From a virus (Duplodnaviria > Caudoviricetes), in the IMG/VR virus record IMGVR_UViG_2898615884_000001, positions 1-64,000 of that record: a stretch of DNA of 64,000 nucleotides; one strand, 5' to 3'. Of the stretch, positions 35,498-64,000 are shown piece after piece (the first letter of the stretch is position 1; every line of letters begins with the position of its first letter). Below the pieces are notes generated by a model that made no database searches, had not been told where the DNA came from, and saw only the letters and a program-made list of their open reading frames with translations. A program made the position numbers and the translations under genes.

Positions 35498-35500
35498 CGG

Positions 35501-42845: not shown

Positions 42846-42854
42846 GCTGTTGTC

Positions 42855-43488: not shown

Positions 43489-43531
43489 GGCCGCCAGCCT
43501 TCCTGCTGGAGCGCGTGCGTGGCGAGATCCA

Positions 43532-45420: not shown

Positions 45421-45545
45421 GCGAGGGACTCCCCAGGTCGAGGCAGGGGTGGGGGAAGCGACGACCCGGGGAGCGGGCGTCGGATGGGACGGGCCTACGG
45501 GGGCCGGAGGATCAGGCGGGAGCGCCGCCGTCGGGCAACGGCATG

Positions 45546-45950: not shown

Positions 45951-45965
45951 GAACCGGAGTTTCTC

Positions 45966-46051
45966 AGGTCCACGTGTGCTTATCAACGCGCTGCCTTTCC
46001 GTGCGGTGAGTTGAGGTCCACGTGGACCTAAGTTAAGGTCCACGTGGACCT
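45966..46051 (+). promoter_or_regulatory. tra-operon promoter with two perfect 16-bp palindromes AGGTCCACGTGGACCT and one partial site
   Basis: Palindromes at 46014-46029 and 46036-46051; partial AGGTCCACGTG at 45966-45976; TTGAGG(46011)-N17-TAAGGT(46034). Confidence 0.85.
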
Positions 46052-46083
46052 AATCGCAACCCCGACATGCCAAGGGAGATCAG

Positions 46084-46890
46084 ATGCCCCGCACCCTCGT
46101 TGCCGCCGCCCCCGGCCCGGCGCGTCTCGACATCACCGTCCCTTTCGGACACGTCAAGATCGCCGCCGCGCCCGGCTGCGCCACCGCCACCCTGACCCTG
46201 ACCGCGACCACCACCGACCCCGCGCTCGCCGACCTCATCGACCGCGCCACCCTCCACACCACCGACCACGGCCTCGTCGTCGCCGTCCCCAAACTCCCCG
46301 GCACCGCCACCATCCGCACCAACGGCAACTTCGGCATCCAGGTCCAGGCCAACCACGGCAGCGGCACCTTCATCGCGGGCGACTACCACGGCGCGAACGT
46401 CATCAACGGCCAGCACATCCAGCCCGGGGCCCCGCCCCGCGCGGTATCCGGGGACATCGAGGTCGTCGCGCTCGTACCGCCCGGCAGCGACATCGAGGTC
46501 GACGGGAACGCCGCCGACCTGAGCGCCAAGGGCCGCCTCGGCTCTGTCACCGCCCACGCCAGTTCGGGGGACGTGGACGTGGACACCGCCGACACCCTGA
46601 CCGTCCGCACGACGTCTGGTGACGTCCATGGCGCCGAGGTCACCGGCCGGACCGACATCACCACCACCGCCGGCGACATCAGCATCGCTAGGTTCGGCGG
46701 CACGGGCGACTTCGTCACATCCTCGGGAGACGTCACCGTCGCCGCGATTCAGCGGGGTAACGTCCGCGCCCGCACCTCAACCGGGGACATCCGCGTCACT
46801 GCCGCGCCTGGTATCGCCGAGGGGTTGACGGTCTGGGCCCGGAGCAGCGTGGGGTGTATCCGCGTTCCGGACGGGGCGGCTGCGGGCTGA
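46084..46890 (+). CDS. DUF4097-like beta-strand repeat protein
   Basis: Repeats such as VTAHASSGDVDV, VRTTSGDV, ITTTAGDI, ARTSTGDI. Confidence 0.85.
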   Translation: MPRTLVAAAPGPARLDITVPFGHVKIAAAPGCATATLTLTATTTDPALADLIDRATLHTTDHGLVVAVPKLPGTATIRTNGNFGIQVQANHGSGTFIAGDYHGANVINGQHIQPGAPPRAVSGDIEVVALVPPGSDIEVDGNAADLSAKGRLGSVTAHASSGDVDVDTADTLTVRTTSGDVHGAEVTGRTDITTTAGDISIARFGGTGDFVTSSGDVTVAAIQRGNVRARTSTGDIRVTAAPGIAEGLTVWARSSVGCIRVPDGAAAG

Positions 46891-46940
46891 CCTAGGCGTT
46901 CTGCGTTTTCTCACGTCGTTGCGGATTTCTTGGAGGACTT

Positions 46941-50521: not shown

Positions 50522-50523
50522 CC

Positions 50524-50726
50524 CCCACACCCCCTCCCACACCCGGGGTGTGGGAGGGGGTGTGTCAGGGGTGTGGGACCCACACCCACCCCCACACCCC
50601 CCACAGCCCGCTGACCTGCGTAAACCACACCCCCACACCCCCCACACCCCTCCGTGCGAGGGGCCCCTTCCCCGGGCCAGGGGACCGCGCACACCCCCCG
50701 GCCGGGAGGGGTGTGGGGGGTGTGGG
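50524..50726. repeat. clt-like tract of CCCACACCCC repeats including a perfect 40-bp palindrome
   Basis: About 11-12 copies by manual count (4 inverted); palindrome at 50526-50565; starts 3 bp after the traB stop. Confidence 0.8.
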
Positions 50727-50746
50727 AGACCGAGAGGACACACACG

Positions 50747-51628
50747 ATGAGCACGCAGAAACGCCCCGGCCTGATCTGGGCGTGCGCGGTCCTGACCATC
50801 GCAGCCGCCAACCAGCTCCTCTGGAACCTGTGGCACGCCTTCGACACCGGCATGCCGCACCCGCTGGCCGTCGCGACCGGCGCAGTGCCCGTGCTGCTCG
50901 CGCTCGGCACCTCCGCGCTCGCGGCCAGGGTCCGGTGCGGCAACGTGCAGCGGACCCTGACGTACGGCGTGATGCTCGCGGCGATCGGGATCTCGATCCT
51001 GGCGCAGTACGACCTGCTGATGCACTGGATGGGGAGCAAGGCGGTCGCGGTGTTGTTCCCGACCGTGGGCGACCTGGCGACGCTGATCGCTCTGCACGTG
51101 TTGATCGCCGACCCGGTCCCGGTGCGGGTGGCGGCACCGGTCCGTACGAAGGAGAAGACCCGTACGACGACGGTCCGTACGGCGCAGCCGGTGATCTGTG
51201 AGAGGTCGATCGGGACGCCGTACGTACGGGCGCCGCAGGGCGTTCTGCGGGCCGTACGGAACGAGCAGTACGTGCCGGAGCGTACGGGCGAAGAGACCCG
51301 TACGCCGGAGCCGCGTACGCCTTCCGGCGAGCCCCGTACGGCCGAACACGCGGCCCGTACGCGCGCCGTGGTGTCCGCCCGTACGACCCGTACGGACCAG
51401 GTCAGCGCACCCGTACGGGGCGTACGGGAAGGCCGCGCGCACTGGGTCGAGGTGCTGGCCGACGAGATCCGTACGGCCCGTACGGAAGGCCGTACGTGGG
51501 AACCGGCGTACGTCGAGCTGGAGGCCCGTACGGGGTGGGGCCGGTCGTGGTGCGAGAAGACCGTACGGGCCGCGCGCGAGGCGGCCGAGGAACGTACGGG
51601 CACCCGTACGGGCACCGACGACGCCTAG
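50747..51628 (+). CDS. SpdB-like/DUF2637 membrane protein with repetitive linker and C-terminal HTH
   Basis: Four N-terminal TM helices; RT/VR-rich linker; ELEARTGWGRSWCEKTV; RBS GAGAGGA. Confidence 0.7.
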   Translation: MSTQKRPGLIWACAVLTIAAANQLLWNLWHAFDTGMPHPLAVATGAVPVLLALGTSALAARVRCGNVQRTLTYGVMLAAIGISILAQYDLLMHWMGSKAVAVLFPTVGDLATLIALHVLIADPVPVRVAAPVRTKEKTRTTTVRTAQPVICERSIGTPYVRAPQGVLRAVRNEQYVPERTGEETRTPEPRTPSGEPRTAEHAARTRAVVSARTTRTDQVSAPVRGVREGRAHWVEVLADEIRTARTEGRTWEPAYVELEARTGWGRSWCEKTVRAAREAAEERTGTRTGTDDA

Positions 51629-51645
51629 CCAAACGGGGCCGTACG
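51143..51645. repeat. Dense array of CGTACG palindromes (mostly CCGTACGG-like) inside the coding sequence
   Basis: About 24 copies in about 500 bp by manual count. Confidence 0.85.
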
Positions 51646-51681
51646 AGGCGGCCCCGTACACACCAAGCGAAGGAGAAGGCA

Positions 51682-52047
51682 GTGCCGACGATCATCACCT
51701 TGCCGGTCGAGATCTCAGAGGACGTCGTCCGCGCGGCGGCGCAGGGCCGAGTCCGGCAGTGGGTCGGGCCGGAGATCGCCGAGGACGTCGTACGCGCCGT
51801 CTTGGCCGACGTCCTGGGAGAGGAGAGCGACGGCCAGCTGCCCGAGCAGTCGAGGCCGGACGCGGACGAGGACGCCGTGGCGGTGTTGATGCGCAAGTAC
51901 CTCGGAGTGGACCCGGCGACCGTGAGCGTGCGGAAGGTCCGGGCGGACCTGGGCGGCGCTCGGCACGACCGAGCGGTGCGCGTGAAGGACCTGTGGACGG
52001 CGAGGTACGCGGCGGCGTTCGGCGGCCGCGCGACCGTACCGGCCTGA
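51682..52047 (+). CDS. Hypothetical protein with HTH-like C-terminus
   Basis: RBS AAGGAG before GTG 51682; VSVRKVRADLGGARHDRAVRV. Confidence 0.65.
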   Translation: MPTIITLPVEISEDVVRAAAQGRVRQWVGPEIAEDVVRAVLADVLGEESDGQLPEQSRPDADEDAVAVLMRKYLGVDPATVSVRKVRADLGGARHDRAVRVKDLWTARYAAAFGGRATVPA

Positions 52048-52105
52048 ATCTCTGAACGGACCGGCCGTCGAGCCGGTGGAACCGATCATCGAAAGGACAG
52101 GAACC

Positions 52106-52378
52106 ATGCCCCCCACAACCCAGCAGCCGGCCGCTTGGCCGGAGGGCGTCATCGCCCGGTACCTCACCGTCGGCGGCGCGACGGTCGATCTGATGCGCAG
52201 CCGGGCCGGGATCACGGCGGTCTGCCGCGGCTGCCCCGTCGCGCACGCCACGCGGGCGTTCGAGAGGGCGGGGTCGGTCCGGCAGGACGGCGGCAAGCGG
52301 GCGACGGAGCAGGCGCAGGAGTGGGCGCAGACGCATGCGGAGCGGTGCCGCGCCATGCCCCGCCCGGACAGCGAGTGA
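52106..52378 (+). CDS. Small protein typical of actinomycete transfer regions
   Basis: WPEGVIARYLTVGGATVDL...C.GC...AQEWAQTHAERCRAMPRP. Confidence 0.7.
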   Translation: MPPTTQQPAAWPEGVIARYLTVGGATVDLMRSRAGITAVCRGCPVAHATRAFERAGSVRQDGGKRATEQAQEWAQTHAERCRAMPRPDSE

Positions 52379-52382
52379 CGTC

Positions 52383-52814
52383 GTGCCCGCGAAGACGCTC
52401 GACATCCGCGCCTACACACCCGCCACCGCGCCACCCTGGGCCGCCGAGATCGTCACCGCGATCCGGGGAGGCGACCTCGCCAAGGGCAGCCGCCTGTTCC
52501 GCGAGGCAGCCTCGACGTCCGGTATCGAGCGCGCGGTCTACGCGGTCGCGGCGGTGGTCGAACCCGGCGCCGGTCAGCTCACGGTCGGCCCGGGGCCGCT
52601 CGTGTACGGCAACCCGCTGCGGACCGGCTACTGCTGGCGCTGCGGGACGTGCCTGGCCACCTTCCGCCGGGGCGGCCCGGCGCCTACCGCGGGCGTGAAC
52701 TACAAGACCGCCCAGAGCGCGCGCGGCGCCGCAGTGAAGCACGACCGCGAGGCGCACGGGGGTCGCTCGACGGTGCACGAGCTGAGCCCGAGGGGGCGTG
52801 ACCTGCGGTGCTAG
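52383..52814 (+). CDS. Hypothetical protein with CxxC
   Basis: YCWRCGTC; overlaps the start of the next gene. Confidence 0.55.
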   Translation: MPAKTLDIRAYTPATAPPWAAEIVTAIRGGDLAKGSRLFREAASTSGIERAVYAVAAVVEPGAGQLTVGPGPLVYGNPLRTGYCWRCGTCLATFRRGGPAPTAGVNYKTAQSARGAAVKHDREAHGGRSTVHELSPRGRDLRC

Positions 52815-53710
52815 GGAAGACGCACGCGCTGAGCGGCGCGATGATGTTCGGGGTGCTGGCGGTCCCGGCCGCGCCGGTCGCGCACCTGTCCCTCCCCGAG
52901 CTCGCCCTCGGCACCGTCGTGTGTGCGGGTGCGGCGATGCTCCCGGACATCGATCACCGCGAGTCGCATGTGGCGCGGACGCTCGGGCCGCTGTCCCGGG
53001 GGCTCGCGTGCGCGGTCGCGTGGGTCGCCGGCGGGCACCGCAGGGGTGTGCACTCGCTCGTCGGGGTGGCGGTGGTCGCGCTGCTGGCGTTCCTCGGCGC
53101 CGCGCTCCGCTCGGGGAGCACGAGCTGGGCGGTGGCCGGGATCGCCCTGGCCGCCGTCCTCGCGGGCTCCGGGCTGCTGGCCGGGATGGCGTGGCCGGGT
53201 GACCGGCGGCGCGGCCGACGCGTCTACCCCGAACGCTGGCACGGACCCGCGGCCGCCGGGGTGTTCGGCGTCGTCGCCCTGGCGCTCGCCGTCGGCGCGG
53301 CCGTGGACCCGCACGCGACCGGGACCGGCGTCCTCGCGGTCCTGCTCGTCCTCACCCTTGCGTCGGCGGCGAGGGTCTTCCACATCCGCCGGTGGACGCG
53401 CCTGCGGACCGAGGTGGACGACCTGCTGCCGATCCCGGTCACGTTCGTCCTACTCGTCGGCGACACGAACCTCCGCGTGGTGCCCTTCGCGGTCGTCCTC
53501 GGCGTCATCGTCCACATCGCCGGAGACATGGCCACCGTCGGCGGCTGCCCGCTCGGATGGCCGTGGTCGCTGACCGCGCGGGGGCCTCGCGCGTTCAGGA
53601 CGAACTCGCCCATCGAGCGGGGGCCGGTGACGTGGGCGTGCATGGTGATCTTTGCGGTGACCGTGTTCTGGAACAGCGGGATCGCGAACGCCATCACCAG
53701 GCACGGGTAG
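52808..53710 (+). CDS. Membrane metal-dependent hydrolase (YdjM-like)
   Basis: MLGKTHALSG, LPDIDH, HRRGVHSL, HIAGDMAT..GCPL.WP. Confidence 0.9.
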   Translation: MLGKTHALSGAMMFGVLAVPAAPVAHLSLPELALGTVVCAGAAMLPDIDHRESHVARTLGPLSRGLACAVAWVAGGHRRGVHSLVGVAVVALLAFLGAALRSGSTSWAVAGIALAAVLAGSGLLAGMAWPGDRRRGRRVYPERWHGPAAAGVFGVVALALAVGAAVDPHATGTGVLAVLLVLTLASAARVFHIRRWTRLRTEVDDLLPIPVTFVLLVGDTNLRVVPFAVVLGVIVHIAGDMATVGGCPLGWPWSLTARGPRAFRTNSPIERGPVTWACMVIFAVTVFWNSGIANAITRHG

Positions 53711-53723
53711 CGGCGCGGCGGCG

Positions 53724-53754
53724 ACGGCCCCGAACCACACCGGTTCGGGGCCGT
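53724..53754. terminator. Bidirectional terminator
   Basis: Perfect 13-bp arms ACGGCCCCGAACC/GGTTCGGGGCCGT between convergent genes. Confidence 0.8.
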
Positions 53755-53775
53755 TCGCATGCTCGGCGTCAGCGC

Positions 53776-54285
53776 CTACGGAAGGATGGCGAGCGACGTC
53801 GCCTGCGCCTGCGCCCAGCTCTGCTCACGAATCTCTTCCGCCCTTCTACTGACACAGACCTCCGACGACTCACCCGGCAGGCGCTCGGTCAAGCAGTACG
53901 TGCGAGCCTCGGCGTGCGCTGCCCTGTCCACATCCCTGGACGCCTCTCTGGCGGCGACGAGGGAGACGGCCACGGGGACCGCCGCAGCTACGAACACGAG
54001 TCGCCTCCTGTGCCGGACCGCGATGACGCCCAGGCAGGCCGCGGTGAGCACGACCGCGACGACGAACTTGAGCGGGTCGCCGGGGATGTTGTCGATCAGC
54101 CCCGTCCATCTCCGTCGTTCGGCGGCTCGCGTGTCCGCGTATCGGCGCCGGGCCGACCAGCCGGCGAGCCGATACGCCGCCCATCCCAGGATCGCGGATA
54201 CCTGACCGGCGATGACACCGGCCGTGGCCCCGATCGCGATCGCGGTGGCCGTGACGCTGGACAGGTCTAACAATTTCCTGATCAT
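53776..54285 (-). CDS. Membrane protein
   Basis: Three hydrophobic segments; RBS GGGAG. Confidence 0.65.
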   Translation of the reverse strand: MIRKLLDLSSVTATAIAIGATAGVIAGQVSAILGWAAYRLAGWSARRRYADTRAAERRRWTGLIDNIPGDPLKFVVAVVLTAACLGVIAVRHRRRLVFVAAAVPVAVSLVAAREASRDVDRAAHAEARTYCLTERLPGESSEVCVSRRAEEIREQSWAQAQATSLAILP

Positions 54286-54677
54286 GGACTGCTCCCAGGG
54301 GTATGCCGGATGCGGGGCCGCTGGACGTGGAGGTGCTCGACCGTGACCAGGCGGCCGGACTCCCGTAGCCGCGCCGCGAGGAGCTCCGCTACAGCGACCG
54401 ACCGGTCATGCCCCTGCGAGCAGCCCAACCCGATCGACGCGGTGCCCGGCGCGCACGCTCGGGCGTAGAGCCGGTCCAGCAGTTCGGCAGCGGCGGAGTC
54501 GGCGAGCACGACCTCTCGGACCGCCTGGTCCCGCCCATCCACCGGGCTGACCTCTAACAGCGCGAGGATGCGGTGGTAGCCGGCCGGGTCGGCGAGCTGG
54601 TGGCGGAGGTCCTCGACATGGTCGGCGGGCGGGGGCGGGCCGTGAAGGTAGCCGAACGAGACCAGGTGGACGGTCAT
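54282..54677 (-). CDS. RapZ C-terminal-domain-like protein
   Basis: VHLVSFGYLHG, IGLGCSQGHDRSVAVAELL...VEHLHV; ATGA coupling. Confidence 0.8.
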   Translation of the reverse strand: MTVHLVSFGYLHGPPPPADHVEDLRHQLADPAGYHRILALLEVSPVDGRDQAVREVVLADSAAAELLDRLYARACAPGTASIGLGCSQGHDRSVAVAELLAARLRESGRLVTVEHLHVQRPRIRHTPGSSP

Positions 54678-54898
54678 GTCTTGGTGTCCTCCTGGAGGTC
54701 GGTGCGGGCCCCCTGGCCAGGTCGTTGATGGGCGAGGATCGTGGCCGGCCTCCAGACCGGTGAACGGCCGAACTGCTTGTCCTCGGGTGGGAGTTCGCCG
54801 CGGGCTCGGTAGCGGCGCGCGGAGGCGTACTTGATTCCGTAGTGGTCGGCGACGTCTTGGAGTGTCCAGTAGTCGGCGTCGGGGTCGGGCTTGGTCAC
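54674..54898 (-). CDS. AlpA/Xis-like HTH ending RPGQGARTDL
   Basis: WTLQDVADHYGIKYASARRYRARGELP...SPVW...RPGQGARTDL. Confidence 0.8.
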   Translation of the reverse strand: MTKPDPDADYWTLQDVADHYGIKYASARRYRARGELPPEDKQFGRSPVWRPATILAHQRPGQGARTDLQEDTKT

Positions 54899-54981
54899 GG
54901 GTGCGGGCTCCCATCGTCTACTTGATGGGGACAAAGTCTAGGCCGTGGGTTGTGGCGGTCCCTCAAAGCTACTTCGTCTCT

Positions 54982-55028
54982 CTGATGTTGACAAGGTTGC
55001 TCGCCTCTCCTAACCTTGTCTACATCAG
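54982..55028 (+). promoter_or_regulatory. Near-consensus promoter flanked by a 17-bp inverted repeat
   Basis: TTGACA(54988)-N17-TAACCT(55011); arms CTGATGTTGACAAGGTT / AACCTTGTCTACATCAG with one mismatch. Confidence 0.85.
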
Positions 55029-55051
55029 GACGACAAAGACTGGAGGGTGAC

Positions 55052-55504
55052 ATGGCGAAGCGGACCACCACCAAGACGGCCCACTGCCGCCGCTGCCGCG
55101 CCCTCCTCACCAACCCCCGCTCCGTCGCCGAAGGCATCACCCGCCCCTGCCTCCGCAAGGAGCGCGCAGAGGCCGCCGCGCTCGCAGAAGCCCGCGCCTC
55201 CGTCGTCGAGGTCGCCGTCAACGCCATCGACACCACCGCCTTCAAAAACCCGCAGGCCGTCAAGGACAAGGCCGTCCAGCTCATCCTCGACGGCGCGATC
55301 GTCCCCACCCGCTTCGACGGCGTGTACCTCGCCACCGGCTCCGACGGCGTGTCGACCTACCTCACCGACACCGTCGAGCGGTCGTGCACCTGCAAAGCGG
55401 GCCAGCGCCTCGGCCGCTGCAACCACCTGATCGCGGGCGACGCGCTCGACCTGCTCGACAACGGCGCCTTCGCCAGCACCACCGCCATCCTGCTCGCCGC
55501 CTGA
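55052..55504 (+). CDS. DUF6011-like N-terminus plus SWIM-type Zn finger
   Basis: CRRCRALLTNPRSVAEGITRPC; CTCKAG...RCNH; RBS GGAGG. Confidence 0.75.
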   Translation: MAKRTTTKTAHCRRCRALLTNPRSVAEGITRPCLRKERAEAAALAEARASVVEVAVNAIDTTAFKNPQAVKDKAVQLILDGAIVPTRFDGVYLATGSDGVSTYLTDTVERSCTCKAGQRLGRCNHLIAGDALDLLDNGAFASTTAILLAA

Positions 55505-55528
55505 ACTGCTTTCCCGAAGGAGACCAAG

Positions 55529-55813
55529 ATGAGCGCACGCTGGGACCGGCTCGCGGCCACCCTCGCCGAGGCTGGCATCGCCACCGAGGTCGACCGCCGC
55601 ACATGGCACGGCGAAACCGTCTGCCGCATCACCATGCGCGTAGACGGCGGCCTGATCACCATCGGCGACACGTGGCGCCGCGGCCGCTGGACCGGATGGC
55701 AGGTCACTGCTGAGGACACCGACGACATCGTCGTCCGCGAGTTCCCCAAGACGAAGAAGCGCGCCGAGGTCCGGCAGCACGTTGAGGAAGCCCGCGCCGT
55801 CCTCGCAAGCTGA
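55529..55813 (+). CDS. Hypothetical protein
   Basis: RBS AAGGAG. Confidence 0.75.
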   Translation: MSARWDRLAATLAEAGIATEVDRRTWHGETVCRITMRVDGGLITIGDTWRRGRWTGWQVTAEDTDDIVVREFPKTKKRAEVRQHVEEARAVLAS

Positions 55814-55819
55814 CGCCCC

Positions 55820-55845
55820 GTCTCGGGCCGGTACCGGCCCGAGAC
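55820..55845. terminator. Perfect 26-bp palindrome after a stop codon
   Basis: GTCTCGGGCCGGTACCGGCCCGAGAC. Confidence 0.55.
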
Positions 55846-55885
55846 AGGACGCCGGCTCACCCCCCTGATCAGGAAGGACCCCGAT

Positions 55886-56038
55886 ATGTACACGCTCCGC
55901 GCTGTCGCGGCGCTCGCGTCGCTGATCTGTTTCGCGGTCACCGTCACCACCCAGGGGTTCGGTGTCCTGGCCCTGATCGGCGGGATCGCGGTCACGTGCT
56001 GGGTCCTGGTTCTCGCGCTTACTCCTCGGAGGCGCTGA
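55886..56038 (+). CDS. 50-aa two-TM membrane peptide (not in the ORF track)
   Basis: RBS AGGAAGGA; MYTLRAVAALASLICFAVTVTTQGFGVLALIGGIAVTCWVLVLALTPRRR. Confidence 0.65.
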   Translation: MYTLRAVAALASLICFAVTVTTQGFGVLALIGGIAVTCWVLVLALTPRRR

Positions 56039-56123
56039 CGGTGTGCTGGGCGCTCCCCACCCCGCCGGGGGAGCGCCCAGCATCCACCAGCACCCCACCC
56101 CACCCCACCGGAGGGAGATCCCG

Positions 56124-56264
56124 ATGCAGCGCTGCACCGAGTGCGCCGTGACCAAGCCCGACGTGCGCGAACGCCCTGACCCTTGCGAGGAGGACGTCAA
56201 CGGCCGCGAGGTCCGCCGGGACCTGTGCGACGACTGCGAGGCCGCGATCTCGAACGAGGTCTGA
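56124..56264 (+). CDS. 46-aa Zn-ribbon peptide
   Basis: RBS GGAGGGAG; CTEC...CDDC. Confidence 0.65.
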   Translation: MQRCTECAVTKPDVRERPDPCEEDVNGREVRRDLCDDCEAAISNEV

Positions 56265-56303
56265 CCAGCCCCATCTACCCCACCGCGAACCCGAAGGAGA
56301 CCC

Positions 56304-56756
56304 ATGGACCTCCAAGACCTCAAGCAGCTGCCGGAAGGCACGCAACTCCGCACCACCAAGAAGGAGATCGTCACCCTCGCCGGCTTCGTCCGGTCCGTCG
56401 TGATCGTCCGGCACGCGGACGGCGGAACCCGCGAGTACAGGTCGGTCAGCCTCCACCACGTCACGGACGTCCACCCGCTCATCACCCGCGAGCGCGCCGG
56501 TCTGACCGGTCACACGGTCACGGTGGAGCGCGTGGGCCGGGACGCGGCCCGCCAGTTCGCTGGCACCGTCCCGAACTGGGAGGGGCTGATCGGCCGACTC
56601 GCCGTGGTGGAGCGGACCGACGGGCGCCTCGGCAAGGTCTGTGACGTCGCCGGGGTGAACGGCCTCGGCGACGGTGAGGACGATGTCGTGTTCGCGGCGT
56701 CGAGCGTGGCGTGCGCGTACGGCGCCCGGTACGTCCCCACCGGAACCCTGACCTGA
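56304..56756 (+). CDS. Hypothetical protein
   Basis: RBS GAAGGAG. Confidence 0.75.
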   Translation: MDLQDLKQLPEGTQLRTTKKEIVTLAGFVRSVVIVRHADGGTREYRSVSLHHVTDVHPLITRERAGLTGHTVTVERVGRDAARQFAGTVPNWEGLIGRLAVVERTDGRLGKVCDVAGVNGLGDGEDDVVFAASSVACAYGARYVPTGTLT

Positions 56757-56762
56757 CGCCCC

Positions 56763-56801
56763 GCCCCGGTCTCGTCCGCGGGTGGCGGACGAGACCGGGG
56801 C
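56763..56801 (+). terminator. Perfect 17-bp-arm hairpin after a stop codon
   Basis: GCCCCGGTCTCGTCCGC-N5-GCGGACGAGACCGGGGC. Confidence 0.6.
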
Positions 56802-56845
56802 AGGCCGCCAGACCAGGCCCAACCCACCACCAAAGGAAGGCGCGC

Positions 56846-57346
56846 ATGGGCTACGACACCGACTTCACCGGCAAGATCCAGATCGAGCCGCCCCTCAACC
56901 CCAGCGAAATCAGCTACCTGCGCCGGTTCTCCGACTCCCGCCGGATGCACCGCGACACCGGCCCCTACTACCTGGGGAACCGCCGCCCCGAGGAGAACGA
57001 CACCGGCGTCGTCGACCCCAACTCCCCGCCCCCGGAACAGCCGGGCCTGTGGTGCGACTGGGTCCCGACACCCGACGGCACGGCGATCGAGTGGAACCGG
57101 ATGGAGAAGTTCTACTACGCCACCGAGTGGATGGAGTACCTGATCAACGCGTTCCTGTCGGAAGGCGCGGACGTCCAGGCCGAGCTGAAGGCGCCGATCG
57201 TCGGCCGGTTCTACCCGCCGGAGTTCGCGGAGTTCACGTTCGACCACGTCCTCAGCGGGACGGTCGAGGCGCAGGGCGACGACCCGGACGACCGGTGGGA
57301 CCTGGTCGTCTCCGACAACGAGGTCCAGAGGGTGGAGAAGGGCTGA
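56846..57346 (+). CDS. Conserved hypothetical protein
   Basis: MGYDTDFTG...PPL...PGLWCDW.P..DG..IEWN.MEKFY; RBS AAAGGAAGG. Confidence 0.8.
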   Translation: MGYDTDFTGKIQIEPPLNPSEISYLRRFSDSRRMHRDTGPYYLGNRRPEENDTGVVDPNSPPPEQPGLWCDWVPTPDGTAIEWNRMEKFYYATEWMEYLINAFLSEGADVQAELKAPIVGRFYPPEFAEFTFDHVLSGTVEAQGDDPDDRWDLVVSDNEVQRVEKG

Positions 57347-57374
57347 CCAGCCACCCCAATGAGACCGTGAACGC

Positions 57375-57407
57375 GAAGGGCCCGTACCCCACCGGTACGG
57401 GCCCTTC
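57375..57407. terminator. Bidirectional terminator
   Basis: Perfect 14-bp arms GAAGGGCCCGTACC/GGTACGGGCCCTTC between convergent genes. Confidence 0.8.
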
Positions 57408-57416
57408 ATCGCGTGG

Positions 57417-57659
57417 TCAGGCCGGGCCGGCGCCGATCCGCATCGCCCAGCCCGACGGCAACGGCACCGCCTCCGCCTGAAGCCGGTCCCTGCCCGCCTG
57501 AGTCCTGGCATGGACCGAGAACCACCCCTCACTGACCTTCCACGTGCCGCCCGCGCCCCCGAGGTCCTCGGCGGCCGCGGTCAACCGCTTGTGGCGCTCG
57601 ACGGCCTCGTCCACATCGGCCGGCGGGAAGGAGATCGTCAGGAGGTTTTCGTCAGCCAT
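57417..57659 (-). CDS. Hypothetical protein
   Basis: RBS GAAAGGAAGG before ATG 57659. Confidence 0.65.
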   Translation of the reverse strand: MADENLLTISFPPADVDEAVERHKRLTAAAEDLGGAGGTWKVSEGWFSVHARTQAGRDRLQAEAVPLPSGWAMRIGAGPA

Positions 57660-57716
57660 GAGGGCCTTCCTTTCTGGGAGGCTCCCAGGATCCGGGACGC
57701 CCGGCGTGGGCGGGAG

Positions 57717-57749
57717 GGGTTTCCAGTTGACTGCTGAAACTGGAAACCC
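57717..57749. promoter_or_regulatory. Operator-like inverted repeat GGGTTTCCAGTT-N9-AACTGGAAACCC
   Basis: Perfect 12-bp arms between the methyltransferase stop and the next gene. Confidence 0.55.
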
Positions 57750-57760
57750 GGGCGCTCGCG

Positions 57761-58900
57761 TCAGGGGCTGATGATGTTGGACGGGGCGTCGCGCCAAACC
57801 ACCTGACGGTCGGGGCCCACGGTCAGCCCGAACTCCTCCCGGCCGGGACGCCCCCACCCTGTCCACCGCTCGTACGCGGAGGCGACCTCGTCCCACAGCC
57901 GCCGCGGCCCCGCCTGCCACACCCGATGCTCGCCGTCGCCCTGCCGGACCCGCGCCCACGAGGTCCCGGCCGTGTCCGCCAACTCCACCTCGACCACGCC
58001 GTCCCGCTCGCGGGGCGCGCCCATGACATCCGGGAGCGCGCCGGTGATCGCGACGTCCGCGCCGAGACTGCCGGTCACCTCACCGGGATCGAGGTCCGTG
58101 GTGGTCTCATCCGCGCCCGCCATGTCCGCAGGCACGGTCAAGGTGCTGCGCTGCGCGCGGAGGATCATGTAGTTCGTGGTCCCGATGAGCCGGCCGACCG
58201 CGTGCCCGTCGCCGGTGACGGTCAGGACCGCCTTGTGGCCTTCCCCGTACTCCGGCATCCACGGGACCACGATCCGGCCGCCCGGCCGGGTCTGCTCCAC
58301 CCACGCATACGGGACATCACCGACACCGCAGGTGACGTGGACACCATCGAACGGCGCACGATCGGGGACGCCGAGCGCACCGTCGCCGGTGACTATGAGC
58401 GGGTCGAACCCGGCCAGGTCCAGGGTCTCGCAGGCAGTAGCGGCGAGGCCCGGGTCGACCTCCACCGTGGTCACGTCCGCGCCGAGCGCGGTCAACAGCG
58501 CCGCCGTCCACCCGGTGCCGGTGCCGATCTCCAGGACCCGGTCACCGGGCTGGACGTCGAGCGCCTCCAGGAACGCCACGACCGCGCCCGGGGCCGACAG
58601 CGAAGACGTGGCCTCGGCGACGCCCTGGGCCGGGTCAGCGGCTCCGTCGGCGGCCTGGACGACGATGGACCCGTCGCTGTACACCGCGTCCCACCAGACG
58701 TCCGGGTCGGCGTCGCGGTCGATGCGGTGGCGGGGGCCGGGGCCGTTCGTCGCGAACCAGCCGCGGGCCGGCGCGAACAGGTGCCGGGGGGCGGCGTGCA
58801 AGGCGTCCCGGGTGCGGGTGCTGATGAGGAAGCCGCGGGCGGTCAGGGTGTCGGTGAGCGCGTCGGTGCGTGCGCTGGTGTCGGTGGTGTGGACGGTCAT
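57761..58900 (-). CDS. PIMT-homologous peptide aspartyl O-methyltransferase (PAMT type) with C-terminal WxxxGxP domain
   Basis: SSLSAP, VLEIGTGTGWTAALL, GDGALG, FDGVHVTCGV, WVEQTRPGGRIVVP; 379 aa; WTGWGRP near the C-terminus. Confidence 0.9.
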   Translation of the reverse strand: MTVHTTDTSARTDALTDTLTARGFLISTRTRDALHAAPRHLFAPARGWFATNGPGPRHRIDRDADPDVWWDAVYSDGSIVVQAADGAADPAQGVAEATSSLSAPGAVVAFLEALDVQPGDRVLEIGTGTGWTAALLTALGADVTTVEVDPGLAATACETLDLAGFDPLIVTGDGALGVPDRAPFDGVHVTCGVGDVPYAWVEQTRPGGRIVVPWMPEYGEGHKAVLTVTGDGHAVGRLIGTTNYMILRAQRSTLTVPADMAGADETTTDLDPGEVTGSLGADVAITGALPDVMGAPRERDGVVEVELADTAGTSWARVRQGDGEHRVWQAGPRRLWDEVASAYERWTGWGRPGREEFGLTVGPDRQVVWRDAPSNIISP

Positions 58901-59007
58901 TTGCCTTTGCCCTTGTCGGGCTTGCCCTTCTCGTCCTTCTCGGCGGGAGGGACGGGACGGTCGGGCTCGTAGGAGTCCTCGTCGGATCGGTCGCCGTGCT
59001 TGCCCAT
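58897..59007 (-). CDS. Putative RiPP (imiditide/pamtide) precursor peptide, 36 aa (not in the ORF track)
   Basis: RBS GGAGGAG; MGKHGDRSDEDSYEPDRPVPPAEKDEKGKPDKGKGK; stop overlaps the methyltransferase ATG (ATGA). Confidence 0.75.
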   Translation of the reverse strand: MGKHGDRSDEDSYEPDRPVPPAEKDEKGKPDKGKGK

Positions 59008-59112
59008 GGTTCTCCTCCGGGGTCGAGCGGACGTGCCCACAGTGCGGTGACCGACGGTACTAGCGCCCTGACCAACGGTGGTCTAGCCCGGCGGTCAGAC
59101 AACCGTGCCGAC

Positions 59113-59847
59113 CTACACCAGCGCCCGGCGCACGACGAGCAGCTCGGGCCCGTCGGCGGGCTCGGGCACGTCAGCCATGGCCGCGGCCGCACCGGCCAGC
59201 TCGCGCCGCGCGGCCATCGACCACAACCGCGAGGCTCGGCCACCGCCTCGGTAGACGTCGACGGCGAGTTGCTTGAGCGCGCGGTGCGCGGCTCCCGTGC
59301 ACCCGACAGCGACGCCGAGCGCTCTGGGGAGCTCAGCGAGGTCGGGCTGGTAGGTCCACCGCTCGACCTCGAAGTGGATGTGGGCGCCCATGTGGGCGTG
59401 CCGGTCGATGACGGCCCGCGCGCACACCGACCCGCAGGCGGACAGGCTCCAGGTCCGCTGGACGGTGTTGCCGACCTGCACGTATCCGTGTTCGTCGCGG
59501 GGGCTGGGGTCGGCGTCGTCGGGGCGCGCGTAGTTCGGTCGGACCGACCAGGCGCTCACCCGGTAGCGGGTGGGGCGTCCGCAGCCTGCGACACCTTGGC
59601 ACGTGGCCATGCGCTGCACGGCGAGCAGGTTGCAGTTGGCGCAGGTACAGGCGTCGCCGCAGTTGCAGCGGGGGGTTCCGTCGTCGTACTCGCCGGCGCA
59701 GTCGCACTCGTCGGGGTCGTCGACGGGACCGGTGGGGGTGGGGGTCCAGGCGCCGTCCCATGCGCTCTGGAGGGTGCGAATGGCGGTGGCGAGCTGCTCG
59801 GGCGTGGGCTGCTCGTTGTCGGGTCGGGGGTTGGTGTTGGTCGGCAT
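59113..59847 (-). CDS. Cys-rich hypothetical protein
   Basis: CDC, CNC..CTCANC, ACGSVC; RBS AAGGA. Confidence 0.7.
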   Translation of the reverse strand: MPTNTNPRPDNEQPTPEQLATAIRTLQSAWDGAWTPTPTGPVDDPDECDCAGEYDDGTPRCNCGDACTCANCNLLAVQRMATCQGVAGCGRPTRYRVSAWSVRPNYARPDDADPSPRDEHGYVQVGNTVQRTWSLSACGSVCARAVIDRHAHMGAHIHFEVERWTYQPDLAELPRALGVAVGCTGAAHRALKQLAVDVYRGGGRASRLWSMAARRELAGAAAAMADVPEPADGPELLVVRRALV

Positions 59848-59889
59848 GTGGGTTCCTTACCGTCTTGGTCGGACGTTTCGGGGTGAGTG

Positions 59890-60315
59890 CTAGGCGGGGT
59901 GGGGAGGCTGGTCGAGGGCGGCGTGCAGAAGCCCGGCCCCGATCGCGTGATGCAGAACGCCGTGGACGCTCGTGGACACCTCCACATCCTGGTCGAACGG
60001 GTGGACCCACCGCAGTGCCCGGCCGGGCTGGACGGCGGCTGGCTCGCCGGTGAGTTCGACCCGGTACAGCTCGGTGAGGACGAGCGCCCCGTCGATCCCG
60101 GACACCGCCTCGAACCGGTCGACGTACGTGAGGCCCGCCAGGCCGGTACCGAGTTCGGCGGCCAGTTCCCGGTCCAACGTCGCCTCGTGGCTCTCACCCT
60201 CGACCGCGGGGCCGCCCGGCATGCAGTAAATGTCAGGGTGCCGGGACGCGGTGATGGTGAGGACGCAGCCGTCCCGGACGACGAGCGCCGAGACCTTCCG
60301 GTAGACGTCGGTCAC
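59890..60315 (-). CDS. Nudix hydrolase
   Basis: MPGGPAVEGESHEATLDRELAAELG (Nudix box with one Glu replaced by Ala). Confidence 0.8.
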   Translation of the reverse strand: MTDVYRKVSALVVRDGCVLTITASRHPDIYCMPGGPAVEGESHEATLDRELAAELGTGLAGLTYVDRFEAVSGIDGALVLTELYRVELTGEPAAVQPGRALRWVHPFDQDVEVSTSVHGVLHHAIGAGLLHAALDQPPHPA

Positions 60316-60740
60316 GGGGTAACTCCTGGCTGGTCGAGGACGGCGTGGAACAGGCTGATGAGTCGGCGGAGTTGCTCGTTGCCCTCCGCCTCGGGAACGT
60401 TCTGGTCGAGGAGGTCGACCAACTCTTGGGCGCGCTGGAGTGCGGCCTCGGCCTGCTCGGCGCGTTTGGCGCTCGCGATCGCGCGGCGCTCAAATGCCAC
60501 CGCCGCCTGATGCGCCCGGTCACGGGACGCCCGGACGGTCGCGAGCGCGGCCTCGAAGACGGGCAACACGGCCAGCGCCGCGACATCGGCCTCACCACCA
60601 GAGATCGGGATGGACCGCCCAGCCGCGAGGTCAGCAACCGCGCGGGGGCCGGGCTTGATGCGGACAGTCGCGCGGATGGCTTCGGCGAGCTGGTCGCGGA
60701 GCGCGGGCTCAGGCGGCGTCGGGTCCGTAGGCATGGTCAC
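60312..60740 (-). CDS. Hypothetical protein (coiled coil)
   Basis: GTGA coupling at both ends. Confidence 0.6.
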   Translation of the reverse strand: MTMPTDPTPPEPALRDQLAEAIRATVRIKPGPRAVADLAAGRSIPISGGEADVAALAVLPVFEAALATVRASRDRAHQAAVAFERRAIASAKRAEQAEAALQRAQELVDLLDQNVPEAEGNEQLRRLISLFHAVLDQPGVTP

Positions 60741-61387
60741 CGATCCTCCTCGGGCGGGTTGCAGAACACGGCGCCACCGTTGGCGATGGCATCCGCGATC
60801 TCCTGCGGCGTCGGTGCGGGCACGATGTGCCGGGCGGCGGCTTCCATGCCACGGCGGAACGACGCGCGGGGACCGGTCAGGGCGTCGCGGTACGGCTCGG
60901 CCTTGGCCAGGATCTCGGCGGCCACCTGCTCGCGGACCTGCCGTTCGTGTTCGCCGGGCCGTGCCATCTCGCACAGCCGCACCGTGTCGTCCGCGGTGCG
61001 CGGCTCGGACCGCCGGGCGACGACCTCCTGCCGTGAGCCGAACAGCTCCGTCATGACCTGCCCGCGGGTCTTCCGCTTGATGTGTGGCGCGCCAGCCTCG
61101 ATCACCCTGCGGGCCTGCCCGGCGAAGTCCTGCCATCGCAGGTGGTCCGCGTTGAACTCGGCGTCGTAGTCGCGGAGCAGGAGTTCGGCGACGGCCGTGA
61201 CCGCTTCCTCGGGTACGTCCGGCGCGTCAGCCATGGGTGTGGTCTCGGGTTCGGGCAGCGGCAGCAGGCCGGCCTCTTCGCGGCAGGCGGCGCAGCCCCC
61301 GAGGCCGTTGCACTTCGCGACCAGCCGCGGGCCGGGCTTAGCCGGCTCGCCAGGGCCGTACCAGTGGCCGTGGGTGGTGTAGGGCAT
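60737..61387 (-). CDS. Hypothetical protein
   Basis: RBS AGGA; N-terminal YTTHGH...C..GGC..C. Confidence 0.7.
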   Translation of the reverse strand: MPYTTHGHWYGPGEPAKPGPRLVAKCNGLGGCAACREEAGLLPLPEPETTPMADAPDVPEEAVTAVAELLLRDYDAEFNADHLRWQDFAGQARRVIEAGAPHIKRKTRGQVMTELFGSRQEVVARRSEPRTADDTVRLCEMARPGEHERQVREQVAAEILAKAEPYRDALTGPRASFRRGMEAAARHIVPAPTPQEIADAIANGGAVFCNPPEEDR

Positions 61388-61403
61388 GGTGTCGAGTCCT
61401 GTC

Positions 61404-61679
61404 CTAGAAGTTGGTTCGTTCGGTGCGGCGGTTGCCGTGGTGCAGCCTCACTAGCTCGGCGAACACGGTCCGGAGACCACGGACATCGCCGTCGTTCTGC
61501 GCGAGCATCCGGACGGTCTGGTTCATCACGACCGCCCAAGGGACCCCTTCGGTGAGCGCCCCGGCGATCGCGCCTTCGAGGTCGCGGATGTTGATGTCCT
61601 CGCGGGTCTTGGCGGCGAGGGCGAGGAGTTCGGCCGTAGCCGGCTGCGCAACCGGCTGCCCGGCTGACTTACCGGTCAC
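61404..61679 (-). CDS. Hypothetical protein
   Basis: GTGA coupling. Confidence 0.6.
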   Translation of the reverse strand: MTGKSAGQPVAQPATAELLALAAKTREDINIRDLEGAIAGALTEGVPWAVVMNQTVRMLAQNDGDVRGLRTVFAELVRLHHGNRRTERTNF

Positions 61680-61918
61680 GTCCCACCTCGCGCGACCCGG
61701 GCGGCCTCCCGAAGCTCATCAGCGCTCGCATGCCAGCCGGTCGTGTCCAGCTTGGTCGCGCGCCCCTCGATCTCGCTGGCGATCTGTTCGCGGACCTGCG
61801 ACGCGAGCGTCTCGGCGAGGCTCCCGTAGTCGATGGCCCGCGCGTGTTGGCACACGATGTTGTGGTCGGTGTGCCAGTTGCGGACCGCGCTGGCGATGAG
61901 GGTTTCGAGGGGGCTCAA
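61676..61918 (-). CDS. Hypothetical protein
   Basis: TTGA overlap with the upstream stop. Confidence 0.55.
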   Translation of the reverse strand: MSPLETLIASAVRNWHTDHNIVCQHARAIDYGSLAETLASQVREQIASEIEGRATKLDTTGWHASADELREAARVARGGT

Positions 61919-62439
61919 AGCAGCTCCAGTTGTCCGGTGGGGTGCGCGGTGGCGCGCTTGGGCTTCTTGGGCTCGGCCGCGCGGCGGAGGGACGGTCGGG
62001 GGGCGGGTCGTGCGGCGGGTGCGGGGATCCCGGCGTCCCGCCGCGCGACCTGGACGGCGATCCGCTCCGCACGCCGCTCGGCATACGGCTGCGCGCGAAC
62101 CTGGCGGAGGATCATCTCGGCAGCGCGCCACGGGTCGGCCTCACGGCGACAATCCGCACACCGGCCGACGACGTTCTCGTGATGGCAGAGCTGCACACCG
62201 TCCGGCTCCGTCATCGCGCGGGCGTTGTGGTTGTTGACCCTGGCCTGGATAGACGCGGGCCGCTCCTCCGGGATCCGGAACGGGTTGTCAGCCTCCTGCG
62301 CACGGGCCATCGCGTCACGAAGCTGAGCCGTGGTCATCCCCTTGCGGCACTCGGGCCCAATCCGGAACGCACGGGATGCCGGGTCGGTGAGCGGCTTTCC
62401 GCATTCGGTGCAGGTGGGGTCGACCACGCGGATGCTCAT
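61915..62439 (-). CDS. DUF6011-domain protein
   Basis: CTECGKPLTDPASRAFRIGPECRK. Confidence 0.8.
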   Translation of the reverse strand: MSIRVVDPTCTECGKPLTDPASRAFRIGPECRKGMTTAQLRDAMARAQEADNPFRIPEERPASIQARVNNHNARAMTEPDGVQLCHHENVVGRCADCRREADPWRAAEMILRQVRAQPYAERRAERIAVQVARRDAGIPAPAARPAPRPSLRRAAEPKKPKRATAHPTGQLELL

Positions 62440-62669
62440 GCCGGGCCCGCGCCGTTCTTGAGCGCCAGGCCGTGCTGGATGAGGGCGGTGTGCACGTCAT
62501 CCAGCGACTTGGTCCCGAAGTTGCGGATGTCGAGCAGATCGAACGCATCGCACGCCGCGAGGTCGCCGATGGTGCGGATCCCCTCACGCATCAGCGCGTT
62601 GTAGGCGCGGGGCGACAGGTTCAGCAACGCGATCGGGTCGCCCGGCTGGAGGGTGCGGGTGGTGGCCAT
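62436..62669 (-). CDS. Stand-alone RNA polymerase alpha C-terminal domain homolog
   Basis: IALLNLSPRAYNALMREGIRTIGDL...LLDIRNFGTKSLDDV..AL...GL. Confidence 0.85.
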   Translation of the reverse strand: MATTRTLQPGDPIALLNLSPRAYNALMREGIRTIGDLAACDAFDLLDIRNFGTKSLDDVHTALIQHGLALKNGAGPA

Positions 62670-62673
62670 GGGG

Positions 62674-62868
62674 TCACTTCCTGGTGGTGGGGTGGTGAGC
62701 AGCGGTGATGCGGTGCCGGTCGGCGCGGACCTGCATGAGGCGGACCGCCCACACCGCGGTGACGGTCCGGCCGTAGTGGCGGACCTCGGAGGCGCCGCAG
62801 CAGCAGGACCAGGACACGGCCCGCACCTCCGGGAGATGGCCCGTGCTGACCAGGTGGCTGACGCTCAT
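62674..62868 (-). CDS. Hypothetical protein
   Basis: ATGA coupling. Confidence 0.5.
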   Translation of the reverse strand: MSVSHLVSTGHLPEVRAVSWSCCCGASEVRHYGRTVTAVWAVRLMQVRADRHRITAAHHPTTRK

Positions 62869-63203
62869 GACATCGAGAGCTCCTCGTCCCAGGCAGCGAA
62901 GAAGTCGAGCTGGACGGCCTCGGACGGCACGACGCGGCAGTCGCAGGCGCACCGCCAAGCGCACGGCCGGCCGACCCGCCACACCCGCGCGTCGCTCGAC
63001 GGCGCAGGCGAGACCACCGAGCCCTTGCTGTTGGTGACCCACCCCGCCGGGAACACGGCGGGCTCGCCGGCGCGGCACCGGTCGTGGTCGCCGTGCACGC
63101 AGTTCGAGCACGGCCCCCACTCGCAGGGGCAGGTCGCGATGGGCGCGCGGAGGGCGGGAGGGAGGACGTTGGCGCGGATCCACGCGGCGGCTTCCGGTGT
63201 CAT
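62865..63203 (-). CDS. DUF6248-like Cys-rich protein
   Basis: MTPEAAAWIRANVL...CPCEWGPC..C..G.HDRC...WRCACDC. Confidence 0.7.
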   Translation of the reverse strand: MTPEAAAWIRANVLPPALRAPIATCPCEWGPCSNCVHGDHDRCRAGEPAVFPAGWVTNSKGSVVSPAPSSDARVWRVGRPCAWRCACDCRVVPSEAVQLDFFAAWDEELSMS

Positions 63204-63427
63204 CAGGCCCCCCAGTCCGGGCAGTCCACCGCGCCGCATGGCGAGCCCAGCTGCTCGATGGCGCCGCACCAGGGGCAGTCCTCGTCGGAGGGGTCGGCGT
63301 CGCCGAGGTCCTTGCGGTCGGCGACGTCCAGGCCGCATACCGCCCGGTCGGGGTCGCAGCAGTAGACGTGGACGAAGTCGTGGTCGAGTCCGGGGCCGGT
63401 GGGGCGCGGCAGGGTCGCGGTGATCAC
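63203..63427 (-). CDS. Small Cys-rich protein
   Basis: HVYCCDPDRAVCGLD...CPWC; coupled at both ends. Confidence 0.65.
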   Translation of the reverse strand: MITATLPRPTGPGLDHDFVHVYCCDPDRAVCGLDVADRKDLGDADPSDEDCPWCGAIEQLGSPCGAVDCPDWGA

Positions 63428-63978
63428 GACGCCTCCTGGGTGGTCGTGGTGGTGCAGGTCCAGCAGGTGCCGTCGGGGTCAAGCGCGGTGCCGCAGGTCC
63501 CGCAGGTCGGTGCGTCGGCGGGGTGTCCGTCGTTGTCCGCGCGTGTCCGCCGGTGTCCGTGGTTGTCCGCGCGGGGTGGTGCGACGGGGTGGGCGGCGGC
63601 GTGCAGGACGAGGTCGGTGTACGGGGCGGTCGGGCCGAGCTGGGCGCGCGCGGCTTCGATGGAGGCGGCGCCGCAGTCGGGTAGGCGCTGAAGCCGGGTG
63701 ACCGCAGCGTCGTATGCCGGGGACGTCTCAGCGGGCGCGAGACGGCCGCGCGTGCGCCGTGTGCGGAACTGGTCCGGGTTCAACCACTTCGCCCGCCTAC
63801 GGGGACCTGAGGGACGCACGGGGCCAATGGGGCGCGTGGGCTCAGGCCGATCCCGAAGCCACGCGAGATACGCGACGGGATCCTCCGGCAGATCCACCGG
63901 CGGCGGCTGCGTCGCCTCGGCCACCTCGCGGGCACTGCGCTCGACCGCCTCCGCCACCCACGGATCCGGCCGGTTCAT
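63424..63978 (-). CDS. Hypothetical protein with C-terminal Zn ribbon
   Basis: CGTCGTALDPDGTCWTC; ATGA overlap with a gene that runs off the window. Confidence 0.6.
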   Translation of the reverse strand: MNRPDPWVAEAVERSAREVAEATQPPPVDLPEDPVAYLAWLRDRPEPTRPIGPVRPSGPRRRAKWLNPDQFRTRRTRGRLAPAETSPAYDAAVTRLQRLPDCGAASIEAARAQLGPTAPYTDLVLHAAAHPVAPPRADNHGHRRTRADNDGHPADAPTCGTCGTALDPDGTCWTCTTTTTQEAS

Positions 63979-64000
63979 GCCAACTCCAGCGGCGCCTGCG

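What the first reader, a model, noticed from the sequence alone, without database searches (positions are those of the whole stretch)
57761..59007. Phage-borne two-gene RiPP cluster: hidden 36-aa precursor coupled to a PAMT-type methyltransferase (imiditide/pamtide-like)
Seen: the ORF track misses 58897-59007(-), MGKHGDRSDEDSYEPDRPVPPAEKDEKGKPDKGKGK. It has a strong RBS (GGAGGAG), six Asp residues and a Lys-rich tail, and its stop overlaps the ATG of a 379-aa PIMT homolog. That enzyme has a C-terminal extension containing WTGWGRP (WxxxGxP). Known: PIMT homologs with this extra domain install aspartimide/isoaspartate in RiPPs, and imiditide/pamtide clusters consist of just a short charged precursor plus the methyltransferase. 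Inference: the phage encodes a backbone-modified peptide among its early genes, perhaps an effector in host takeover, lysis-lysogeny signalling or anti-defence. The peptide has no Asp-Gly dipeptide, so the modified site may be atypical.
Basis: partly seen in the sequence, partly recalled or inferred. Interest (0 to 1): 0.86.

Follow-up and report, generated by a model that had tools for sequence, protein, structure and literature searches.

The report
Modified-peptide gene pair carried by prophage
A prophage in an Actinomadura-like soil bacterium carries a two-gene unit of a known kind (imiditide/pamtide) that makes a small peptide with a chemically altered backbone; the kind is known but its job is not, and unrelated actinomycete phages, including a laboratory phage, have picked up such units repeatedly, which makes the job testable.

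Summary
Observation confirmed. The 36-aa ORF is a real gene under purifying selection, coupled by a 4-nt overlap to a 379-aa PAMT. The pair meets every sequence criterion for an imiditide/type I pamtide cluster that could be tested; the enzyme is 43% identical to the founder NmaM and the peptide shares NmaA's M-G-[KR]-H start and Lys-rich end. It lies inside a tailed prophage of an Actinomadura-like genome. 'Atypical site' is wrong: NmaA is modified at Asp-His, and Asp25 here aligns within one column of NmaA Asp28. A phage-specific effector role is unsupported: such enzymes occur in 84 of 104 genomes of the genus, the pairs are mostly chromosomal, the prophage copy nests among chromosomal copies, and related prophages lack it. 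What seems new is recurrence: pairs occur in about ten phage lineages (at least 5 tree changes forced), including isolated Streptomyces phages such as Alderaan. I found no paper noting this; the scan noted it on other DNA (e1-5844971, e1-5795242). Best reading: host-derived, self-promoted accessory cargo making an intracellular aspartimide/isoAsp peptide; the biological role is inferred only.

The parts
59054..59059 (-). Putative -10 element TACCGT, 52 nt before the precursor start (inferred own promoter)
   Evidence: TAC[CG]GT lies 41-70 nt upstream in 7 of the 10 closest pairs, phage and chromosomal; background 0.4% of random 60-mers and 4 of 340 gene upstreams; kin are not independent; no transcript data
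59012..59018 (-). Ribosome-binding site GGAGGAG
   Evidence: Sequence
58897..59007 (-). Imiditide / type I pamtide precursor, 36 aa, M-G-K-H start, Pro-rich middle, Lys-rich end, net charge -1
58933..58935 (-). Asp25 codon, best candidate for the modified residue (n+1 = Glu); about 60%
   Evidence: Within one alignment column of NmaA Asp28; 40 of 41 Pro-containing homologues have an Asp within 7 residues after the Pro stretch; invariant in the closest clade
58975..58977 (-). Asp11 codon, second candidate (n+1 = Ser); about 25%
   Evidence: Invariant in the closest clade but Asp in only 23 of 45 homologues, Asn in 9
57761..58900 (-). PAMT (peptide L-aspartyl O-methyltransferase), 379 aa, PIMT core plus acidic C-terminal domain
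   Evidence: PCMT 2.5e-27; TIGR04188 4.5e-82, full length but under cut-off; 43% to NmaM over 353 aa, 8e-68; model pLDDT 96.8, best fold match T. maritima PIMT 1DL5 over 373 columns; residues 251-379 pI 4.5, net -9
58511..58525 (-). SAM-binding GxGxG motif (residues 126-130)
   Evidence: G126, G128, G130 invariant in 115 homologues
57845..57865 (-). WxxxGxP motif (residues 346-352)
   Evidence: W346 and P352 invariant, G350 in at least 90%
57417..57659 (-). 80-aa phage gene downstream; not part of the mobile cassette
   Evidence: 99% identical in the A. litoris prophage but outside the DNA shared with chromosomal copies; no family found
6813..64000 (.). Host prophage (continues beyond the window to an integrase at G000:C6:237098-238498; left end uncertain)
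   Evidence: Terminase 31444-33075, portal 28956-31334, major head 25868-26806, integrase; tape measure and endolysin; gene map; att repeats not found

Best explanation
A genuine imiditide / type I pamtide cassette that the prophage's lineage captured from the Actinomadura chromosomal pool and keeps as accessory cargo. Shown by sequence: two coupled genes, family membership, selection, and a two-gene unit that moves as a block. Inferred from NmaA/NmaM and SpaA/SpaM chemistry: the PAMT binds the linear charged peptide through its acidic C-terminal domain, methylates one Asp with SAM (most likely Asp25), and the ester closes spontaneously to an aspartimide that hydrolyses mainly to isoAsp. With no protease, exporter or signal peptide, the product probably stays full length inside the cell, partly bound to its enzyme. 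Inferred weakly (about 40% within this reading): it is expressed from its own promoter in the lysogen and serves the same role as the chromosomal copies, an intracellular conflict or stress module that benefits the lysogen, for example against other phages or elements.
For: Family criteria met. DNA homology with chromosomal copies spans only about 57758-59009. Tree: the window and A. litoris prophage copies sit in three nested strongly supported sets otherwise made of non-phage loci. 84 of 104 genus genomes have such enzymes; 24 of 44 pairs lie within 4 kb of XRE-DUF5753/DUF397 cassettes. Related prophages lack it: G079 (terminase 75% identical) has no match in its genome, and G089's only match is on another contig. 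dN/dS of the PAMT is 0.44 between the two prophages and 0.38-0.41 against chromosomal copies, so it is maintained in the phage. Phage label needs 9 changes, at least 5 forced. Precedent by analogy: lanthiphage clusters, which carry a PCMT enzyme, are anti-phage and enriched on prophages (10.1101/2024.06.26.600839).
Against: No biochemical, expression or phenotype data. Neighbours are not known defence systems (only generic methyltransferase and NUDIX hits in PADLOC). The NmaM acidic loop DEDGD aligns to a less acidic stretch here. Precursors are often broken beside intact enzymes on chromosomes, so some copies are clearly dispensable. Alderaan, which lacks an integrase (PMC7650747), still carries a pair, which does not fit a purely lysogenic role.
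Confidence: 0.72

Rival explanations
1. Phage-cycle effector: the modified peptide acts during lytic growth (host takeover, anti-defence) and was recruited for that purpose.
For: About ten phage lineages carry pairs; it sits at the end of the long leftward array that starts at the cro-like gene; integrase-less Alderaan keeps it.
Against: Overwhelmingly chromosomal family; no extra constraint in the phage lineage; only 8 near-full-length records (5 isolates) among 50,697 phage records; positions in phage genomes vary (lysis end, before terminase, among small genes).
Confidence: 0.12
2. Toxin-antitoxin-like pair: the PAMT is a toxic Asp methylase of cell or phage proteins and the peptide is a tight-binding decoy substrate.
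For: Small gene first with a 4-nt overlap; NmaA holds NmaM even in 8 M urea and turnover is low; no export or cleavage machinery; mobile-element and XRE-DUF397 neighbourhoods.
Against: Intact PAMT ORFs with broken or absent precursors are common, including this genome's C3 copy and a clade of about 14 enzymes with no adjacent peptide found; NmaM modifies one Asp of its peptide specifically.
Confidence: 0.07
3. Intracellular signal: the modified peptide is a ligand for an XRE-family regulator with a long helical C-terminal part and tunes lysis-lysogeny or cassette expression.
For: Such 330-410-aa XRE regulators lie within about 3 kb of the pair in PapayaSalad, the G031 prophage and L060.
Against: None lies near the pair in this window (the nearest is about 60 kb away); only 3 of 44 genus pairs have one within 4 kb; no signal peptide.
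Confidence: 0.06
4. Generic isoAsp repair PIMT with a chance upstream ORF.
For: PIMT core fold and motif.
Against: TIGR00080 score 81.8 is far below its 159 cut-off; extra C-terminal domain; the peptide is conserved, under selection and co-varies with enzyme clades.
Confidence: 0.03

Closest known systems
Imiditide mNmaA(M), NmaA/NmaM of Nonomuraea maritima (Cao et al., 10.1101/2023.04.07.536058)
   Same: Two genes, precursor first with a 4-nt overlap; enzyme 43% identical with acidic C-terminal domain (net -9 against -8.5); peptide starts M-G-[KR]-H, ends Lys-rich, net charge near zero, non-Gly n+1 residue.
   Different: Peptide 36 against 46 aa, shorter follower, a P-V-P-P stretch before the candidate Asp, n+1 Glu rather than His; weaker acidic loop; located in a prophage.
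Type I pamtides, SpaA/SpaM (Lee et al., PMC10787088; 1414 clusters counted in PMC13001092)
   Same: Gly/Pro/Asp/Lys-rich linear precursor plus PAMT, conserved Asp near prolines, no other enzyme.
   Different: No mention of phage location in the main text of the 2026 review or in the held part of the supplement (the supplement table is cut, so this exact cluster may be in their list).
Cysimiditides / type II pamtides
   Same: Same enzyme type, frequent XRE-DUF397 neighbours; this genome has one on contig C14.
   Different: No Cys, no zinc ribbon.
Graspimiditides (group 13 graspetides, TIGR04188 methyltransferase)
   Same: Closest NCBIfam model; many of their precursors contain M-G-K-H-G at the core start.
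   Different: No ATP-grasp gene, no leader, score under the cut-off (276 against 380).
Phage-borne RiPP clusters: sublancin in SPbeta (10.1101/2020.10.01.322628); lanthiphages (10.1101/2024.06.26.600839)
   Same: RiPP cargo on temperate phages.
   Different: Sublancin is exported and has immunity and transporter genes; lanthiphages are cyclised lanthipeptides. This pair has a single enzyme and no exporter.

Membership tests
Imiditide / type I pamtide | PIMT homologue of 300-450 aa with GxGxG | tested here: met
   379 aa; GTGTG at 126-130; criteria
Imiditide / type I pamtide | Extra C-terminal domain with WxxxGxP | tested here: met
   Residues 346-352; aligns with the NmaM C-terminus; fold like 1DL5
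Imiditide / type I pamtide | The published 41-aa C-terminal MEME motif | tested here: inconclusive
   The logo is a figure and is not held; the region aligns with NmaM
Imiditide / type I pamtide | 30-75-aa Asp-containing ORF on the same strand within 500 bp upstream | tested here: met
   36 aa, 6 Asp, 4-nt overlap
Imiditide / type I pamtide | Precursor rich in Gly, Pro, Asp, Lys with a conserved Asp | tested here: met
   K 19%, D 17%, G 14%, P 14%; D11 and D25 invariant in the closest clade
Imiditide / type I pamtide | No other RiPP-class enzyme in the cluster | tested here: met
   Neighbours are NUDIX, YdjM and unknown phage genes; shared DNA covers the two genes only
Imiditide / type I pamtide | Acidic C-terminal domain for charge-based recognition | tested here: met
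   pI 4.5, net -9; NmaM -8.5
Imiditide / type I pamtide | SAM-dependent Asp methylation and aspartimide / isoAsp formation | not testable with these tools
   Needs LC-MS
Cysimiditide / type II pamtide | Two CxxCxGxG motifs | tested here: not met
   No Cys in the peptide
Graspimiditide | Adjacent ATP-grasp ligase; TIGR04188 above cut-off | tested here: not met
   276 bits against 380; no ATP-grasp neighbour
Canonical repair PIMT (Pcm) | About 220-aa single domain; TIGR00080 above cut-off | tested here: not met
   81.8 bits against 159; 379 aa
Prophage cargo | Lies between phage structural genes and the integrase | tested here: met
   same gene order in the A. litoris prophage
Prophage cargo | attL / attR repeats; inducible phage | tested here: inconclusive
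   No convincing repeat found; induction not testable

The most novel reading that the evidence does not exclude
Imiditides are phage-conflict molecules: actinophages have captured these two-gene cassettes many times because the aspartimide/isoAsp peptide (or its enzyme complex) acts inside the cell in superinfection defence, anti-defence or lysogeny control. This would be the first biological function for the class and the smallest phage-borne RiPP system.
Probability: 0.3. Interest if true: 0.82.

Novelty: new member of a known kind. Interest (0 to 1): 0.5.

Why it matters
The chemistry is known and more than 1400 clusters are catalogued, but the 2026 review (PMC13001092) names biological function as the main open problem and does not mention phages. 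Repeated independent capture by actinophages is a clue to function. Isolated phages of Streptomyces venezuelae (Alderaan, PapayaSalad, Austintatious, Bioscum, Ididsumtinwong) carry a pair, so a deletion and expression test is possible in a laboratory strain. This particular locus is one ordinary member of that pattern.

Tried and rejected
The sigma-70 promoter/terminator scan found nothing. DNA alignment A2 mixed strands for several loci and was replaced. A single-protein scan of viral contigs found nothing; the alignment scan did. The peptide was too short for the search for related loci. The 80-aa downstream protein has no informative family or Atlas hit and was rejected as a cassette member. 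PADLOC hits are generic. The tree is the quick version with several long phage branches, so deep placements are unsure. Context calls for genus loci used only +/-10 kb and a small hallmark set, so some 'chromosomal' loci may lie in undetected elements. dN/dS values are probably inflated by GC-rich codon bias. No paper was found linking imiditides or pamtides to phages, but most subscription papers are not held. The NmaA query was decoded from the paper's primers and matched a genome at 100%.

Full report
Observation. The peptide ORF at 58897-59007(-), its GGAGGAG site, the ATGA overlap and the 379-aa methyltransferase at 57761-58900(-) are as described. The small ORF is a real gene: it scores +20.6 under a codon model trained on this genome, homologues precede the enzyme in 44 other loci, and among the ten closest peptides synonymous differences (pS 0.60) far exceed replacements (pN 0.16), with the EKDEKGK block changed only at silent sites.

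The enzyme. It has a PCMT core, matches the RiPP-type model TIGR04188 along its whole length but under cut-off, and falls well below the cut-off for repair PIMT. The model is confident (pLDDT 96.8) and best matches T. maritima PIMT, the one solved structure with the extra C-terminal domain. GxGxG and WxxxGxP are present and the C-terminal domain is acidic. I recovered the founding imiditide locus by decoding NmaA from the published primers and finding it at 100% identity in a genome. NmaM is 43% identical to this enzyme over 353 residues, and NmaA shares the M-G-[KR]-H start, the Lys-rich end and the 4-nt overlap. All published mining criteria that can be tested are met.

The modified residue. 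Lack of Asp-Gly is not unusual for this class: NmaA is modified at Asp28-His29. Asp11 and Asp25 are both invariant in the closest clade, but Asp11 is Asn or absent in half of the wider family, while 40 of 41 proline-containing homologues keep an Asp just after the proline stretch, and Asp25 aligns within one column of NmaA Asp28, where two NmaA homologues have Glu next. I put Asp25 at about 60% and Asp11 at about 25%. This is inference; no complex model could be run.

The setting. The window is most of a tailed prophage in a 9.2-Mb genome whose nearest protein matches are Actinomadura. The pair lies near the end of the long leftward gene array. An A. litoris prophage has the same order of genes and an 84% identical enzyme. 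The next relatives, however, are chromosomal: A. terrae, this genome's own contig C3, and others beside XRE-DUF5753/DUF397 cassettes or metabolic genes. 84 of 104 genus genomes have such enzymes, up to 16 matches each, and 24 of 44 pairs lie within 4 kb of XRE-DUF5753/DUF397 genes. DNA homology between the prophage and chromosomal copies covers just the two genes, and a TAC[CG]GT element 41-70 nt upstream is shared by 7 of the 10 closest pairs against a background near 1%. In the tree the two prophage copies nest inside chromosomal ones in three strongly supported sets. Prophages with 75% identical terminases lack the pair. The pair is therefore accessory cargo taken from the host pool, and it is maintained in the phage about as strongly as on chromosomes.

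Recurrence in phages. Five isolated Streptomyces cluster BC phages carry a 47-48-aa M-S-G-K-H peptide and a 40% identical enzyme between lysis and regulatory genes. Fifteen IMG/VR contigs carry such enzymes; seven have a peptide pair among clear phage genes (L059, L060, L061, L063, L071, L072, L073), one at a likely edge, four are graspetide clusters and one is a radical-SAM pair. A second Actinomadura prophage (G031) has an unrelated pair at its lysis end. The phage label needs nine changes on the tree, at least five forced by strong branches (this count includes the graspetide and radical-SAM rows). So capture has happened repeatedly, although it is rare among all phages. The 2026 review, the cysimiditide and graspetide papers, the imiditide supplement and a survey of phage-related RiPPs do not link this class to phages. 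The scan's own notes flagged similar pairs elsewhere; one appears to be my locus L073.

Mechanism. By analogy with NmaM and SpaM the enzyme binds the linear peptide through charge contacts, methylates one Asp with SAM, and the ester closes to an aspartimide that hydrolyses mostly to isoAsp. No protease, exporter or signal peptide is present, so the product likely stays inside the cell. For its role I favour a self-promoted conflict or stress module useful to the lysogen, because the family sits in variable islands and mobile elements, turns over quickly (broken precursors beside intact enzymes) and has an anti-phage analogue in the PCMT-containing lanthiphages. This step is weak. A lytic effector, a toxin-antitoxin-like pair and an intracellular signal remain possible; generic repair is very unlikely.

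Verdict. A real, intact new member of a known RiPP class. The repeated presence on phages, including a laboratory model phage, appears unreported and offers a direct route to the open question of function. Interest 0.5.

Noticed in passing
G000:C3:112571-113710 (L004): The host's chromosomal copy (78% identical enzyme, intact ORF) has lost the first 21 codons of its precursor and the upstream element; the prophage supplies a nearly matching peptide in trans.
   Followed up: partly
G000 contigs C7:160586-163144, C1:311918-312996, C14:102233-103164: Further PAMT loci in the same genome: one precursor followed by two tandem PAMTs (C7), a frameshifted PAMT behind an XRE-DUF5753 gene (C1), and a cysimiditide precursor with a short 269-aa enzyme (C14).
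   Followed up: partly
window 47583-53710 (+): A plasmid/AICE-like transfer block (FtsK/SpoIIIE TraB-like protein, membrane proteins, YdjM hydrolase) is embedded in the prophage, on the opposite strand, and is shared with the A. litoris and G067 prophages.
   Followed up: partly
L003:18851-19184 (just left of the window): An FxSxx-COOH-like 61-aa RiPP precursor (TIGR04268, E 5e-4, under cut-off) and a 40-aa peptide with 8 Cys follow a 399-aa XRE regulator at the prophage's left flank; no radical-SAM gene was called next to them.
   Followed up: partly
PMC10787088 supplement; L070:8836-9057: Many graspimiditide precursors carry M-G-K-H-G at the start of the core, the same motif that starts imiditide precursors; imiditides may be graspimiditides that lost the leader and ATP-grasp gene.
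   Followed up: no
L111, L112, L115, L118, L120, L121, L125, L126, L130, L132, L144, L153, L161, L169: A well-supported clade of intact PAMTs with no adjacent precursor found; substrate unknown.
   Followed up: partly
L066, L068, L069, L070, L062: IMG/VR contigs carry complete graspimiditide clusters (precursor, ATP-grasp, PAMT) and a radical-SAM plus PAMT pair, so other PAMT systems also ride on actinophages.
   Followed up: no
window 62436-62669 (-): Stand-alone RNA polymerase alpha-CTD-like protein (77 aa, PF03118) among the prophage's leftward genes, conserved in the A. litoris prophage; a possible transcription decoy.
   Followed up: no
L012:4345-6210 (Saccharomonospora phage PIS 136): A PAMT in pieces behind an XRE-DUF397 pair, with a DnaJ zinc-finger-like small gene nearby.
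   Followed up: no
window 497-6275 (+): A block of short rightward genes with DNA-binding proteins left of the lysis genes; it may be the prophage's left arm or a second element.
   Followed up: no
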